Of a stretch of 64,000 nucleotides of DNA, positions 53,801-59,800 are shown one piece after another. The stretch comes from Podarcis tiliguerta (taxonomy: Eukaryota): NCBI GenBank assembly GCA_965153285.1, contig OZ229113.1. One strand, given 5' to 3'. Numbering within the stretch: position 1 is the first letter of the stretch; every line of letters starts with the position of its first letter. Made by a program: the position numbers.

Positions 53801-56800
53801 ATGCGCCCCTAGTGGCCCCTCCTCTTATGAGTTTTTAGGGTCAGAATCAGGAATGTCTGTTCTTACTGTAATTTTATATACACTGTGATATAAAGAACTT
53901 CATCATATATGTAAAAAGAGAGTTAGATTAGGGAGTTTTGAGGTACATATAATTTATAGGAGCCCTTAAAAAAAAAAAAACTCTTACTGTTATTGCAGGC
54001 CAAATGTCATGCTGTTTTATAGCTGGAAAGAAATACTGAGCTAAAATAACAAGAAATAAAAGTCTAAGTGTATAGAGACTGACCCCAGCTCATAATAATA
54101 GGAATTTCTAAATTTAACTCTATAATGGTCCCTTAACAATGATGTCCAACAGATCGTTTTAGTGTATTCATCACTGATTGCGTATGATTAGGTCTAAATC
54201 ATTTTGAGGCTCTGGAAGTTGATGATTAATCCATTAATTCAGCCAGTGAATGGATAATCATCAGTTTAAATTTGGCAATTAAAATTTCACAACTTCACTT
54301 TTAGATTAGTCTGTCTCTTAAGGGTGACATTGTTGGCATAAGACAAAGAGCTATTAGAAGGGGGCACAAGTTTGGGATTAAAAAATATTATTATTATTAT
54401 TTTAAAGATATGTATAATCACACTATTGTGAACAGTAGGCAGCGGGAAATATCTGTAAACCATAACTAGCATCTTCATTTTTTATATATAACATGGAGCT
54501 TGTATAAAACATAAATTACTGCTTAAAATCCATAGAAAGTATCTCCTGTTTTCCCAAATTGCATTTCCAAACGTTTTTCTCAACTGTTTGTTTCTTTGTA
54601 GTCATCTGGAAAACAGGTTTCATCAAGTTAAAATTAGTTTAGTTCATGGTTTCTGAGGTTTTAAGTATGCTATCCATTGTTGTTTTTTCAAGGTAAATAT
54701 ATATGAGAACAGTGTAATAGGAAATGCTGACTCACTGCTTATGGGAAAATTTCAATGTGATTTTTTTAAAAGTAGCAGGTCTGGCTGATGCTTAACTTGC
54801 CAACTTATTGCAGTTGAAACAGCTTGACCTATGAAGCTCTTTGAGGACCTAAATATTGGGTGGTATTCAACTAACATTTATGCAGAGTAGTTGCATTGAA
54901 ATCAATGGACCTAACATAGCGGGCAATCCTATGGCAAGATCCACTGGGGTGAGCAGTTTAGGATTCAGGAGATCTCCAGTTGAGCCAGCTGTTATCTGAT
55001 AAATGTAGCAATAAATCCAGGTTTGCCCCATCTTGTACATTCATGGTTTCCTTTACAAATCTTATTTAAAAACCGCCCAATCCTTTTGGTTTAGGTATGA
55101 ATGTGCCTTTGGTTCTCATTCTAATCACATTTCATTGGAAGCAATTCCCATTAAAATCTATGAGATTATTTTTTTGGCATTTGTTTGCCTTCATTGGCAG
55201 TAGGTGCAAATGAAGTCATTCACACAAGTGTTCGCCTCAAATTAATTACCAGATGCTTTGCGTGTAATTTAAACTGAAGCTTGGTAGCTACCCTATGGTT
55301 GCTAAGAACCTGCAGTGCACTTCATCCACTGATCACTGTGACCAAATCAAAAATATGAAGGGTGAGGAATAAAGATAGTCAGAGAACATCAAAGGGGTTC
55401 TTAAGGCATGTTTCACGGTTGGAAATAGAGAGAGTTCAACCAGAAGATCCATGGTTCTCTGCACATCAGGACTGAAAATGTGAAGATAAAAGAGTGTTCA
55501 TCAGGACAGCAGTAGGAAATTGTTAGTTTTCAAAGTGGGAAAATATGTGTACTAATATAGAAGTTTTTGCAAGTAACTTTTTAAAGGTATGAGTAGTCCT
55601 GTTCTAGTCAGTGGAACTATTCATAATCATAAAGCCACTGAGGTGCACAGGTGTTTGAGGGAATTAGAGATGCTGATGAACTCAGTGAAGGTAGCACTGC
55701 CTTCCTTGACATTGATGTAATGTCATCCATTCAGCAGGACTGGATTTTAGCTCCCTTGAAGCATTTTAAAATAGAAAATAGCTGAAGTATATCCAATGTC
55801 TCAATAAAACTCTTGAAATGCAATTTTGGCTGGAAAGAAAGAGACAATCCTTTTTTTTTTAAGAAAAGAGAGTTGAAAGTGATACGACTAAAGCATTGTT
55901 GCCCTTGGTTTAGTCACACATTCCTTTGTCTCAGTCATCTTTGGTAAAACAGGTTTAGCAGGTTTTTAAAATTATTCACTGAAGGGAACTGTGCATGTAG
56001 AACACTATGTTTATTGCCCTCATTACACTCTATTTTGGATCTTGTCTTTGTGACAATTTTCCTGCCCTTTTCCTAATCTTACTTTCACTACATTTCTGTG
56101 AGATAGACTAGTTTGAGAAGGAGTGGCTTGCCCACAGCCACACAGCCAGTTTTATTAGCTAAGTGGGGATCTGAATTTGAACTTGGGCCTGTCCAGTCCT
56201 TGTCTAGCACTCTTAAATAGTATATTACATTGGCACTTGCCAGAGTCAACTTAAGTGAAGTTGCTGCCTAGTGAGCCTACAATAAGAACTGTGGCTGGTG
56301 TGAGGCAAGGAAGACCAGAACATTCTGTGTCCATTTTTTGATCTTGGTATTGCAGTCTGGGAATTTCCTGGGGGGTGCTACTTGCATAGGTCAGGTGTCA
56401 AGTTCATTTCTTGAAGTTTGAACAACTACAATACAACTACTATGTAGAGTCCATCTTTCTTTCTTCTTTTCCTTTTCCTTTTCAGAGTACCCAACATAGT
56501 TGGGGGGGGGGTTATGTTGTGGTCTCTAAAGGCCAAGGAAAATCACCTGGCTGGACCAGGGATTAACCAACCTGCCTTAAAGAATGATTCTGAGATATGG
56601 GGGAACAGAATAATATGCTTATCTTATGGGCCTAGAAAGTGTTGGATCCCTAGACAGCATCTTAAAATGCAGAGACATCACCTTGCCAACAAAAGTCCGT
56701 ATAGTTAAAGCTGTGGTTTTCCCATTAGTGATGTATGAAAGTGAGAGCTGGACCATAAAGAGGGCTGATCGCCAAAGAATGGATGCTTTTGAATTATGGT

Positions 56801-59800
56801 GCTGGAGGAGACTCTTGAGACCCATGGACTGCAAGTAGATCAAACGTATCCATTCTTAAGGAAATCAGCCCTGAGTGCTCACTGGAGCACTCCTGAAGCT
56901 CCTGAAGCTGAGGCTCCAATACTTTGGCCACCTCATGAGAAGAGAAGACTCCCTGGAAAAGATCCTGATGTTGTGAAAGATTGAGGGCACAAGGAGAAGG
57001 GGACGACAGAGGACGAGATGGTTGGACAGTGTTCTCGAAGCTACAAACATGAGTCTGACCAAACTGCGGGATGCAGTGGAAGACAGGAGTGCCTGGCGTG
57101 CTCTGGTCCAGGGGGTCACAAAGAGTCAGACACGACTAAACGACTAAACAACAACAAGTCACACTTGGGAAGAAGTACTTATGCACAAGTGAGTGCTCAG
57201 GACCTGCTGGTTTCATGGCTAGCAACCATAATGTTAACGCACCCACAAAGGAAGTGGGCATCACCTTGAATTTAACCACATCATCTGACATAAGCACCCA
57301 CGACATGACTAAACAACAACAGAAAGTGTTGGATCTCTTCCTCCATGGGTGCAGAGAGAGATCCGATGTTGGATTTCTGCTGCTGTGACAACTTCAGCAG
57401 CTCTTGTCCTACTGATGTAGTACTGATGTAGTACTGATGTAGTACTGATGTAGTACTGATGTACTGCAGGAAGTTGGCTTTAACAAATTGATATACTTTC
57501 AATATATGTGAAATAACATGGAAATTACACAACAGGTGATAGTTGCTTTTTAGAACATCTTAGGACAAATGAATGTCTAAGCAACATATGCAACAAAGTC
57601 TATCATACTTATTTTATAATTTAAGAAAATAGCAAAGATCACTTAGTCTATCCCAGATGCAGTGCTTTTTTTCTAGAAAAATAGGTGTTGGTACTCACCA
57701 TGAAATTGCTACAGCAAGCACCACCCTTTTTAACAGCAACAAAAAAAGGTGCAGGTATTGCATACCTATGGGTACCTGCTGAAAAAAGCACTGCCCAGAT
57801 GTAAGGTGATCAGTTCTATCCTGTTGATCAGCTTAAAGCTGCAGTCATCCACAGCAGCATTCAGGGCAAATGCAATTGAGACGTGCAAGGTGTTCACACT
57901 GTGGCAGTCCAGAGGTGCAAAGTGGTAGTGATTCAAATACTTGTGTAGTGTGGAAGGTATGGTTAGGCAACAACTGGACTATAGTAGTTTCTGCAGACAC
58001 TGACACCTGCATGTCTATTACCCAAAAGCTTCTAGATCAGGTCCACCGTCCCTCAGACCATGTGGTGGGACGGACTATATTTTGAAGGGAAAAAAATGAA
58101 CGAATTCCTATGCCCCACAAATAACCCAGAGATGCATTTTAAATAAAAGCACACATTCTACTCATGTAAAAGCACGCTGATTCCTGGACCGTTCGTGGGC
58201 CGGATTGAGAAGGTGATTGGGCTGCATCCGGCCCCCGGGCCTTAGGTTGCCACCGCTTTCTTCTTCTTTGGTGATCACTCGTAGCCGAGTATGTTTGTCT
58301 TCCATATACACGGTTTTAACAAGGAGTCTGTAAGTGACTGCCCTGTTTTAGAGAGTGAACAGGGATCCACCATTCTGCCCCCTTAACTTTTCCAGTCTGT
58401 TAAGGAAGAATGGCACCACTTCCATCTGCAGCACTCAGAAATATTCAGTACGTCTGTTGGATGACCAAATAGTTCTCAGTGTTTAGTCTAGATTGTTCTG
58501 CATTTCTCTCAGCAAAAAGCATAAGCAAACTCAATAAATTTCTATTCATTTTATCTCCCTAGCAGCTGGCTAAAACATCTCAACTAAATAACAGAAAATA
58601 TGTGTTAATAAAGTGGATATTAATCCAATGCTGTGGGTGCTCTGCTTTTATTAGCAAATATGTCAAATGCAGAAGGTTCATTTCAATCCCTTGCATAAAT
58701 TTTTTAAAAATTTATTTGGAAAAGATGGGGAATGCGACAAAAATGCTAATTTGGAAAAGACAGAATTAGTTGTGGTAATGTTCTCCTCAGCAGTAGCTTC
58801 AGCAGTTAAAAAGATGGATGAGGTCCATGCCGTGAAATAGAAGGTATGGATTTACAAAGATGTGCTGGTATCTGTTCTTTTTGAGCTATAAAGTCTGTCT
58901 AAATAACCATATTCTCCCGGGGAGAGAATCTGCTGCTTTGGCTGCCTGTGTGTTGTATTTGGACCATCTCCATTTCCAAATGTTGACGTTTCGTCTGTGA
59001 CCGAAGAATAAAATCTGTGGGAGAGATGTGTAAAACTGTAATCCCCATTTATTTGCTAACAAAAGGTTTTGCAGAATCCTGCTTGGTTTCTCCTCCGCCA
59101 CTTTTTTCAAGGTGACTGCCTGCATCTAGAACATGACACTGATATTCCGCCCGTGAACTAAACTTCTTTTTATAGCGGTATTTTTAATTTGGAGTATGGA
59201 AAAGGTACTAGTGGATTTGGCCTCAGCCTTTGCCTCACATTCATATTAATCAGGCATATTAACATAGGATGGGACCTAGAATAAATATTAATAATAACAA
59301 TGAAGTTGAAAAAGAGATGGCAGGATTAGACTCAGAGGCCTCCGCTCCCTGAGTTCTGCTGAGTCAAGCTGCCACAACTTGTGACCCTCCAAGTTGCATT
59401 AAGCCCACCAGTCATTTACAGTGGTGCCTCGCAAGACGAAAAGAATCCGTTCCGGGAGTCTTTTCGTCTTGCGGTTTTTTCGTCTTGCGAAGCAAGCCCA
59501 TTGACGGAGTAGCGCTATTAGCGCTATTGGCTAAAAAAGGGCTAAAAACGGCTTTTTAAAGGGGGGGATTAGCGGTTTTGCTGCTAAAATGCTTTTAGCA
59601 GCTTAGCGATTCAGAATAAGGGGTTTTGGAGCAAAAAAAAAATTCGATTTTTTCCGTCATTTTTCGTCTTGCGAAGCAAGCCCATAGGGAAATTCGTCTT
59701 GCGAAGCGCCTCTGCAGACGGAAAACCCTTTCGTCTTGCGGGTTTTCCGTCTTGCGAGGCATTCGTCTTGCGGGGCACCACTGTACTAGGAATTACCCCA

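What the first reader, a model, noticed from the sequence alone, without database searches (positions are those of the whole stretch)
56634..57335. BovB insertion carrying ~145 bp of foreign DNA and a second BovB tail inside one 15-bp TSD
Seen: AGAAAGTGTTGGATC precedes the BovB 5' junction but does not recur after the normal tail at 57157. It recurs at 57321, after an unrelated segment (57158-~57300) and a second mini-tail CGACATGACTAAACAACAAC. Inference: the whole unit inserted in one event, by 3' transduction from a source copy with a downstream tail remnant or by an RT template switch. 3' transduction is well established for L1; for a LINE thought to need its own tail, the re-supplied tail suggests how flanking DNA could be moved. 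The segment would tag the source element.
Basis: partly seen in the sequence, partly recalled or inferred. Interest (0 to 1): 0.7.

Follow-up and report, generated by a model that had tools for sequence, protein, structure and literature searches.

The report
Lizard BovB insertion carrying extra DNA
A truncated BovB jumping-gene copy in a lizard-type genome sits with 141 bases of unrelated DNA and a second short BovB tail inside one pair of target-site repeats. This is most simply one insertion that carried neighbouring DNA along, but a later second insertion into the tail cannot be ruled out from this window.

Summary
The 15-mer AGAAAGTGTTGGATC occurs only at 56634-56648 and 57321-57335. Between the two copies lie three pieces:
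- a 509-bp 5'-truncated BovB 3' fragment with the canonical tail (56649-57157);
- 141 bp with no detectable relation to anything available (57158-57298);
- a 22-nt BovB-type mini-tail (57299-57320).

The element belongs to the Podarcis-type squamate BovB family. Named relatives are 87-91% identical, and the two-unit tail is the same as in published P. muralis copies.

The two tails also form an exact 15-bp direct repeat (57142-57156 and 57307-57321) around the foreign segment.

Three readings remain:
- one-event 3' transduction primed at a downstream tail remnant, which I prefer (about 0.4);
- a later tail-into-tail insertion (about 0.25);
- a template-switch chimera (about 0.2), a route already reported for RTE-clade LINEs in Anolis.

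No source locus, sibling insertion or orthologous site could be examined, because no squamate genome was available.

The finding is a modestly interesting single locus: a new member of a known kind.

The parts
56634..56648 (+). 5' copy of the outer 15-bp target-site duplication (AGAAAGTGTTGGATC). It is preceded by T at 56633.
   Evidence: this is one of only two matches in the window. The T|A start fits the published reptile BovB cleavage signature (PMC13295347, section 3.2). The T-rich stretch upstream has two adjacent T at -10/-9 and no run of three.
56649..57157 (+). 5'-truncated BovB (RTE-clade LINE) 3' fragment of 509 bp. It covers the broken end of ORF2 and the canonical tail: two CGACTAAA units carrying the ORF2 stop, followed by (CAA)3.
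   Evidence: It is 90.4% identical over 512 columns to the copy at 8338-8842. tblastn with the named Podarcis muralis protein P0056 (998 aa; endonuclease and RT Pfam domains) aligns residues 826-998 as one segment at 71% identity with 4 in-frame stops. The alignment start at 56623 over-runs the junction. The tail is the same as in the P. muralis full-length copies of supplementary FigS3.
57158..57298 (+). Foreign segment X: 141 bp, 46% G+C, 1 CpG, origin unknown.
   Evidence: There is no other copy in the window, no Rfam or tRNA match and no fold signal on either strand (z -0.9 and -0.8). No alignment to BovB beats shuffles, and the best tblastn E against ORF2 is 4.4. There is no Pfam hit. Three reading frames were searched against proteins; two gave no candidate or hit, and the third gave only spurious hits to bacterial repeat proteins. 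A 24-mer is absent from genome contigs. X has no hit in 29 fetched BovB loci. It shows a weak, non-collinear excess of shared 9-10-mers with BovB.
57299..57320 (+). BovB-type mini-tail of 22 nt. It equals the canonical tail apart from a 3-base shorter middle and one CpG-to-TpG-type difference, and it ends in (CAA)2.
   Evidence: repeat D2: 22 nt, 86%. The exact 14-mer is shared only with the two full tails. CpG-to-TpG variants at either tail CpG are seen in several P. muralis rows.
57321..57335 (+). 3' copy of the outer 15-bp target-site duplication.
57142..57156 (+). Left copy of the exact 15-bp internal direct repeat (GACTAAACAACAACA), which lies inside the first tail. It is a candidate TSD for a nested insertion.
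   Evidence: (15 of 15 identical).
57307..57321 (+). Right copy of the internal 15-bp direct repeat. It spans the mini-tail and the first base of the outer TSD.
   Evidence: (15 of 15 identical).
8135..8851 (+). Comparison copy A: a longer 5'-truncated BovB 3' fragment with the same tail and (CAA)7. It has no second tail downstream and is not part of the composite.
   Evidence: tblastn with P0056 covers residues 767-998 in two frames, so at least one frameshift, with 1 in-frame stop, at 88-89% identity. Sequence. No tail-like 14-mer lies downstream. No flanking direct repeat of 7 bp or more was found.

Best explanation
I read this as one BovB retrotransposition event that copied a read-through transcript, that is, a 3' transduction. 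The proposed steps are:

1. A source BovB was transcribed past its own (CAA)n tail into 141 nt of flanking DNA. That flank happened to end in an older, very short BovB tail remnant.
2. Target-primed reverse transcription started at the downstream remnant instead of at the element's own tail.
3. It ran back through the flank, the full tail and 509 nt of ORF2 end, and then stopped, giving the 5' truncation.
4. Second-strand nicking 15 bp away produced the single TSD pair.

What is shown: the order of the parts, the single outer TSD, the BovB identity and the tail identity. What is inferred: the read-through RNA, the source locus, and priming at the remnant.

One-event origins taken together (this one plus template switching) I put at about 0.6.
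For: - **Outer TSD.** It is a single exact 15-bp pair enclosing everything, with no copy after the first tail.
- **Cleavage signature.** The TSD starts with A after T, as for reptile BovB, where the signature was seen in 265 of 353 P. muralis TSDs (PMC13295347, Table 3 and section 3.2).
- **First tail.** It is complete and canonical and abuts the foreign DNA directly, as expected at an element/flank boundary.
- **X looks like anonymous flank rather than a cellular RNA.** It has no Rfam or tRNA match, no fold signal, and no protein or Pfam relation beyond spurious hits.
- **Mini-tail.** It is a true BovB tail, and its two differences are of the kind seen in aged copies.
- **Recognition in cis.** A read-through RNA keeps the full BovB 3' region, so a remnant of only 22 nt need not carry recognition on its own (inference).
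- **Rough prior (my inference).** With 52,041 BovB hits in 1,511 Mb in P. muralis, about 0.5% of elements would have a same-strand tail within 300 bp downstream. That is rare but not negligible.
Against: - No source locus or sibling insertion was seen. X was absent from everything searchable, and none of those collections holds squamate genomes, so this absence is not evidence either way.
- The exact 15-bp repeat around X fits a nested insertion equally well.
- I found no paper reporting 3' transduction by BovB or another RTE-clade LINE. I searched and judged the papers from listings only. The mechanism therefore has no precedent in this clade, whereas template switching does (PMC4476161).
- The T-run of the published signature is not met as a run of three.
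Confidence: 0.4

Rival explanations
1. Two events, a tail-into-tail nested insertion.

1. The 509-bp BovB fragment first inserted with the outer TSD and a short tail ending directly at 57321.
2. Later, a second BovB-driven insertion of an RNA ending in a BovB-type tail nicked the resident tail at its T|A. It primed by pairing with the AAACAACAAC stretch and duplicated 11-15 bp of tail.
For: - An exact 15-bp direct repeat, 57142-57156 and 57307-57321, brackets X. It is the same length as the outer TSD.
- A T|A step lies inside the tail at 57145/57146, matching the published first-nick preference.
- Pairing between the tail repeats and the nicked target is one of the roles proposed for these microsatellites (PMC6007223, section 18).
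Against: - The repeat is made of tail sequence, which any BovB-type tail would share. Copy A, 10% diverged, has the same 14-mer. The repeat is therefore expected under the one-event models too.
- The inserted unit is not a recognisable element. It has no tRNA-like head and no second copy. Its tail is of the LINE type (CAA)n, not the (ACCTTT)n of Sauria SINEs.
- The RNA would have to be recognised in trans through only about 22 nt of tail.
- The paper notes that BovB copies are rarely flanked by targets resembling the 3' repeats (section 4.1).
- No T-run lies 10 nt upstream of the inner nick.
Confidence: 0.25
2. One event with template switching.

1. Reverse transcription began on a BovB tail and copied about 22 nt.
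2. It switched to an unrelated RNA (X).
3. It then switched again to the 3' end of a BovB RNA and copied 509 nt.

The result would be a three-part chimera inside one TSD.
For: - The outer TSD is single.
- The 5' part starts exactly at a complete BovB tail, as in end-to-end jumps onto an acceptor's 3' end.
- U6 chimeras with an RTE-clade LINE were reported in Anolis carolinensis, with the conclusion that stringent-type LINEs form chimeras by template switching (PMC4476161, passages).
- The mini-tail's differences from the main tail fit decay after insertion.
Against: - It needs two switches in one event.
- X is not a known abundant small RNA (Rfam, tRNA) and shows no coding relation. Those are the usual partners in such chimeras.
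- X has no fold signal.
Confidence: 0.2
3. A DNA-level rearrangement after insertion: repair, slippage or conversion at the (CAA)n tract that captured filler DNA and duplicated part of the tail. An assembly artefact is a second possibility under this heading.
For: - Microsatellite tails are fragile.
- The 15-bp repeat could be a duplication made during repair.
- X shares slightly more 9-10-mers with the BovB body than about 98% of controls, which a patchwork origin might explain.
Against: - The mini-tail keeps homology upstream of the exact repeat, the CACGAC at 57299-57304. A simple duplication of the last 15 bp does not give this.
- There is no donor for X within 64 kb.
- Nothing suggests misassembly: the window has no N and the junctions are clean.
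Confidence: 0.1

Closest known systems
L1 3' transduction (recalled: Moran 1999; Goodier 2000; Pickeral 2000; not read here)
   Same: One TSD pair encloses the LINE 3' part, its own tail, a stretch of non-LINE DNA and a second terminal tail.
   Different: L1 accepts any polyadenylated read-through RNA. Here the terminal tail is a specific 22-nt BovB-type sequence that would have to pre-exist in the flank. No source locus has been seen. I found no report for the RTE clade (searches, judged from listings only).
LINE/small-RNA template-switch chimeras, including U6 with an RTE-clade LINE in Anolis (PMC4476161, passages read)
   Same: Non-LINE sequence is joined to the 3' end of a stringent-type LINE inside one insertion, in a lizard genome.
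   Different: Those chimeras have two parts, with a known small RNA at the 5' side. Here there are three parts, the unknown segment lies in the middle, and it matches no Rfam family.
Ruminant BovB / Bov-A2 / Bov-tA 3' architecture (table in PMC3747384; loci L007 and L012)
   Same: A BovB ORF2 end is followed after a spacer by a second BovB 3'-end unit. This was seen in L007, which is 1 of 6 fetched loci with at least 150 bases after the first end.
   Different: In L007 the second unit matched 65 bases of the LINE end at 83%. I recall that this repeated unit is a family feature of ruminant BovB and its SINEs; only L007 shows it whole here, and L012 only its start. In the window only 22 nt are shared, the spacer is unrelated, and it is one locus.
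Sauria SINE, the BovB-dependent SINE of squamates (PMC13295347)
   Same: It is a non-autonomous sequence that depends on a BovB-type 3' end.
   Different: Sauria SINEs end in (ACCTTT)n and their TSDs start with T (section 3.3). This unit ends in (CAA)2, its TSD starts with A, and it has no tRNA-like region.

Membership tests
Bov-B LINE (RTE clade), squamate lineage | ORF2 homologous to endonuclease-plus-RT proteins of BovB | tested here: met
   The fragment aligns to residues 826-998 of P0056, a Podarcis muralis protein with PF03372, PF14529 and PF00078. Only the C-terminal part is present. Named lacertid relatives are 87-91% identical to copy A's peptide, and Bos mutus is 63%.
Bov-B LINE (RTE clade), squamate lineage | ORF2 stop inside the 3' end, almost no 3' UTR, and a (CAA)n microsatellite tail | tested here: met
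   The paper states that reptile BovB ends in (CAA)n. The roughly 120 P. muralis rows I read show the same two-unit tail, with few exceptions.
Bov-B LINE (RTE clade), squamate lineage | Tn-TA insertion signature: TSD starts with A after T, with TTT about 10 nt upstream | tested here: inconclusive
   T|A is present at 56633/56634. Upstream there are T at -14, -12, -10, -9 and -7, but no run of three. The published frequency is 265 of 353 TSDs in P. muralis.
LINE 3' transduction | A single TSD pair encloses the element, its tail, unique downstream DNA and a terminal tail | tested here: met
LINE 3' transduction | The transduced segment matches the DNA directly downstream of a source element | not testable with these tools
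   No squamate genome is available. X is absent from the window, from genome contigs by a 24-mer and from 29 BovB loci.
LINE 3' transduction | The extra segment has no TSD of its own | tested here: inconclusive
   An exact 15-bp repeat brackets X. It consists of tail sequence, which both models predict.
Template-switch chimeric retrocopy | The partner segment is a copy of a cellular RNA, typically an abundant small RNA or an mRNA | tested here: not met
   There is no Rfam family, no tRNA, and no protein or Pfam relation. This covers known RNAs and proteins only; an unannotated transcript is not excluded.
Template-switch chimeric retrocopy | The junction falls at the 3' end of the acceptor RNA | tested here: met
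   The BovB part ends in a complete canonical tail at the junction with X.
Nested retroelement insertion | The insert is a recognisable element with its own termini | tested here: not met
   There is no poly(A), no terminal inverted repeats around X, no second copy and no SINE head. The only element-like feature is the BovB mini-tail.
Nested retroelement insertion | An intermediate state (host element without the insert) exists at the orthologous site | not testable with these tools
   No related genome is available.

The most novel reading that the evidence does not exclude
BovB is a tail-dependent ("stringent") RTE-clade LINE. In this reading it does carry flanking DNA to new sites when a short tail remnant downstream re-supplies the priming site. 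Some 22 nt of tail next to a (CAA) repeat would then be enough to start reverse transcription on an RNA that holds the full 3' region upstream. X would be a natural tag that identifies the source element and any sibling insertions. It could also mark the birth of a tail-extended BovB sublineage or of a new non-autonomous partner.
Probability: 0.35. Interest if true: 0.55.

Novelty: new member of a known kind. Interest (0 to 1): 0.3.

Why it matters
LINEs that must recognise their own 3' end are generally thought to be poor at moving other DNA. That is one explanation given for why genomes dominated by such LINEs have few retrocopies.

A clear case of BovB carrying flank DNA would show one way round that limit: a re-supplied tail. 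It would also give a natural measure of how little tail the enzyme needs. BovB is in addition the textbook horizontally transferred LINE, so any route by which it drags host DNA along is of interest.

As it stands this is a single, unresolved locus. Its value is as a precise query for a genome-wide census, not as a result in itself.

Tried and rejected
**X as a diverged BovB or RTE 3' end.** Rejected.
- Local and anchored alignments to both copies do not beat shuffles. The anchored test was 2 nt out of register, which I noticed afterwards.
- tblastn of the full ORF2 against X gives a best E of 4.4.

**X as a known structured or small RNA, or as a SINE head.** Rejected.
- Rfam gave one chance match at E 8.2 and nothing at gathering score in the whole window.
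- There were 0 tRNAs, and the fold z-scores were -0.9 and -0.8.

**X as coding sequence.** No support.
- Two frames are open.
- The ORF across the tail into X gave no candidate, and the minus frame gave none.
- The plus frame gave 3 hits at E <= 0.001 in 1.84 billion representatives. These are multi-repeat bacterial proteins with MopE-type motifs, so they are spurious.

**X as a repeat.**
- There is no second copy in the window or in 29 fetched loci totalling 36,192 bases.
- A 24-mer had 0 hits in genome contigs. That collection holds prokaryote assemblies, so this says little.

**Other BovB-tailed elements in the window.** None. The remaining (CAA)n tracts have no tail motif upstream.

**Looking for the source in the P. 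muralis supplement.**
- The tail 14-mer had 0 occurrences in the stored text. Gaps and block breaks split it in the FigS3 alignment. For FigS6 I infer, without having checked, that the stored entries stop before the 3' ends.
- The 3' flanks of the full-length copies could therefore not be read.
- The PDF supplements (Figures S2, S4, S5, S7, S10, S11 and the tables) were not readable, and they may bear on TSD lengths and tail variants.

**The second genome-contig scan.** It returned ruminant-type BovB carry-over in bacterial assemblies, not squamate DNA.
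Full report
**What is there**

The window has no N. The parts between the two 15-mers are as follows.

- **Outer repeat.** AGAAAGTGTTGGATC stands at 56634-56648 and again at 57321-57335. These are the only two matches in 64 kb on both strands, even allowing two mismatches.
- **BovB fragment.** Directly after the first copy a BovB-like sequence begins at 56649 and runs to 57157. It is 90.4% identical over 512 columns to a second, longer copy at about 8135-8842, and the homology stops exactly at the junction with the 15-mer.
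- **Foreign segment X.** After 57157 come 141 bases (57158-57298) that match nothing else in the window.
- **Mini-tail.** Next come 22 bases (57299-57320) that repeat the BovB end, followed by the second 15-mer.

The small corrections are that the foreign stretch is 141 bp and that the second tail starts two bases earlier than stated.

**Identity of the element**

- A stop-free 85-aa piece of copy A finds thousands of relatives. The named ones are Podarcis and Zootoca reverse-transcriptase proteins at 87-91% identity, and Bos mutus is at 63%.
- P0056, a 998-aa P. muralis protein with endonuclease and RT domains, ends in the same residues that both window copies encode.
- tblastn with P0056 covers residues 767-998 in copy A. 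This uses two frames, so there is at least one frameshift, plus one in-frame stop.
- In copy B it covers 826-998 as one segment with four in-frame stops at 71% identity.
- The two copies differ in length at three sites, by 1, 2 and 5 bases.
- The ORF2 stop lies inside the tail. The tail is two CGACTAAA units followed by (CAA)n.
- The same two-unit tail is seen in nearly all of the roughly 120 P. muralis full-length rows I read in supplementary FigS3 of PMC13295347 (part 233 of 262). That paper states that reptile BovB ends in (CAA)n.

The element is thus an ordinary 5'-truncated copy of the lacertid-type BovB family. No spliced gene model was involved, and none of the fetched contigs looked human.

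**The foreign segment**

X is not detectably BovB. Local and anchored alignments to both copies score like shuffles, and the full ORF2 finds nothing in it.

It is also not a known RNA.
- Rfam gave one chance match at E 8.2 and no family at gathering score anywhere in the window.
- There are no tRNA genes and there is no unusual folding on either strand.

Two of its six frames are open, but there is no real protein relation. The ORF across the tail into X and the minus frame gave nothing. The three hits for the plus frame are bacterial proteins with many repeats.

Its composition (46% G+C, one CpG) is that of ordinary non-coding DNA.

One weak oddity remains. X shares more exact 9-10-mers with the BovB body than about 98% of shuffles or of other 141-bp windows. 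The matches are not collinear, and I give this little weight.

**The mini-tail**

- The 14-mer GACTAAACAACAAC occurs exactly only at the two full tails and here, so it is a true BovB tail.
- Against the canonical tail it is three bases shorter in the middle and has one CpG-to-TpG-type difference.
- CpG-to-TpG variants at either tail CpG occur in several P. muralis rows.
- Copy B is itself well decayed, so these differences may have arisen before or after insertion. They do not separate the models.

It is not decisive, because the repeat is tail sequence that any two BovB tails share. Copy A, 10% diverged, has the same 14-mer.

**Mechanisms**

The outer TSD begins with A after T, as published for reptile BovB. 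The upstream T-run of that signature is only partly present.

1. **3' transduction (preferred).**
   - BovB RNAs that read into the flank keep the full 3' region, so a downstream remnant of 22 nt need only offer a priming site.
   - X looks like anonymous flank.
   - Only one event and one RNA are needed.
   - From the published density (52,041 hits in 1,511 Mb) I estimate that about 0.5% of elements have a same-strand tail within 300 bp downstream.
2. **Tail-into-tail nested insertion.**
   - It explains the inner repeat.
   - It needs a second event into a target of about 15 bp, and an odd RNA recognised in trans through about 22 nt.
   - The paper notes that BovB targets rarely resemble the 3' repeats.
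3. **Template switching.**
   - It is documented for an RTE-clade LINE in Anolis.
   - It needs two switches here, and X is not one of the usual partner RNAs.
4. **Repair-type rearrangement.** It is the least likely, because the mini-tail keeps homology upstream of the exact repeat.

My weights are about 0.4, 0.25, 0.2 and 0.1 in that order.

**What is known**

- L1 3' transduction is recalled from memory and was not read here.
- I found no report of it for BovB or the RTE clade. I searched and judged the papers from listings only.
- RTE-clade chimeras and SINE births by RNA recombination are in print.
- Ruminant-type BovB contigs that turned up in bacterial assemblies show, in L007, a second BovB end about 80 bp after the first. 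Tail-spacer-tail architecture therefore exists in the family, though with longer homology.

**Papers read**

| Paper | What I read |
|---|---|
| PMC13295347 | outline; sections 11, 17 and 28 (part 1); supplement parts 233 and 262; two supplement searches |
| PMC6007223 | outline and section 18 |
| PMC3747384, PMC4476161, PMC13174262, PMC3434034 | passages only |

**Limits**

- No squamate genome, no metagenome contigs and no viral contigs could be searched. The source locus, sibling insertions and orthologous sites therefore stay unchecked.
- The PDF supplements of PMC13295347 could not be read.

**Verdict**

This is a single composite BovB insertion of modest interest. It is best treated as a query for a genome-wide census.

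Noticed in passing
L001-L029 (genome contigs): 29 short contigs filed under bacterial or archaeal genome assemblies encode BovB-type ORF2 ends. Nucleotide identity to the window's copy is mostly 75-84% (range 66-84%), which looks like ruminant-type DNA carried over into prokaryote assemblies.
   Followed up: partly
L007:1150-1362: A second BovB 3'-end unit lies about 80 bp after the first. This was seen in 1 of 6 loci with at least 150 bases after the first end. L012 shows the start of the same downstream sequence before its contig ends.
   Followed up: partly
window 57410-57463: An 11-bp tandem repeat (TACTGATGTAG, 4.9 copies, 100% matches) lies 75 bp downstream of the insertion.
   Followed up: no
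window 57367-57378: A third, partial copy of the TSD core (TGTTGGAT) lies 40 bp after the 3' TSD. A short hairpin at 57331-57364 spans the TSD end. The target site may have been locally repetitive.
   Followed up: no
window 8135-8851: A second BovB 3' fragment (copy A) ends in (CAA)7. It has no flanking direct repeat of 7 bp or more and no second tail.
   Followed up: yes
window 30658-30996 (-): A stretch 25% identical to the C-terminal part of BovB ORF2 (E 4e-13), inside a 133-aa ORF. It is probably a fragment of a different LINE clade, and it has no Pfam hit.
   Followed up: partly
window 59414-59785 / 60229-60602; 61837-61904; 63353-63486; 16727-16864: One 377-bp inverted pair at 81% identity and three palindromic stretches, possibly hairpin-type or MITE-like repeats.
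   Followed up: no
window 23829-24400, 42190-42521, 51272-51498; 36579-36802 / 58040-58262: Unnamed interspersed repeat families at 77-87% identity between copies.
   Followed up: no
window 18681-18743: A long (CAA)n(TAA)n microsatellite with no BovB sequence upstream, so not every (CAA)n tract here is a BovB tail.
   Followed up: yes
whole window: None of the 74 ORFs of 75 aa or more that I scanned, of the 78 listed, has a Pfam match. The only reverse-transcriptase-related stretches found are the two BovB fragments and the LINE fragment at 30.6 kb.
   Followed up: partly
window 57158-57298 vs 56649-57130: X shares an excess of exact 9-10-mers with the BovB body. For k=9 the observed count is 4, reached by 14 of 2000 shuffles and 8 of 439 genomic windows. 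The matches are not collinear.
   Followed up: partly
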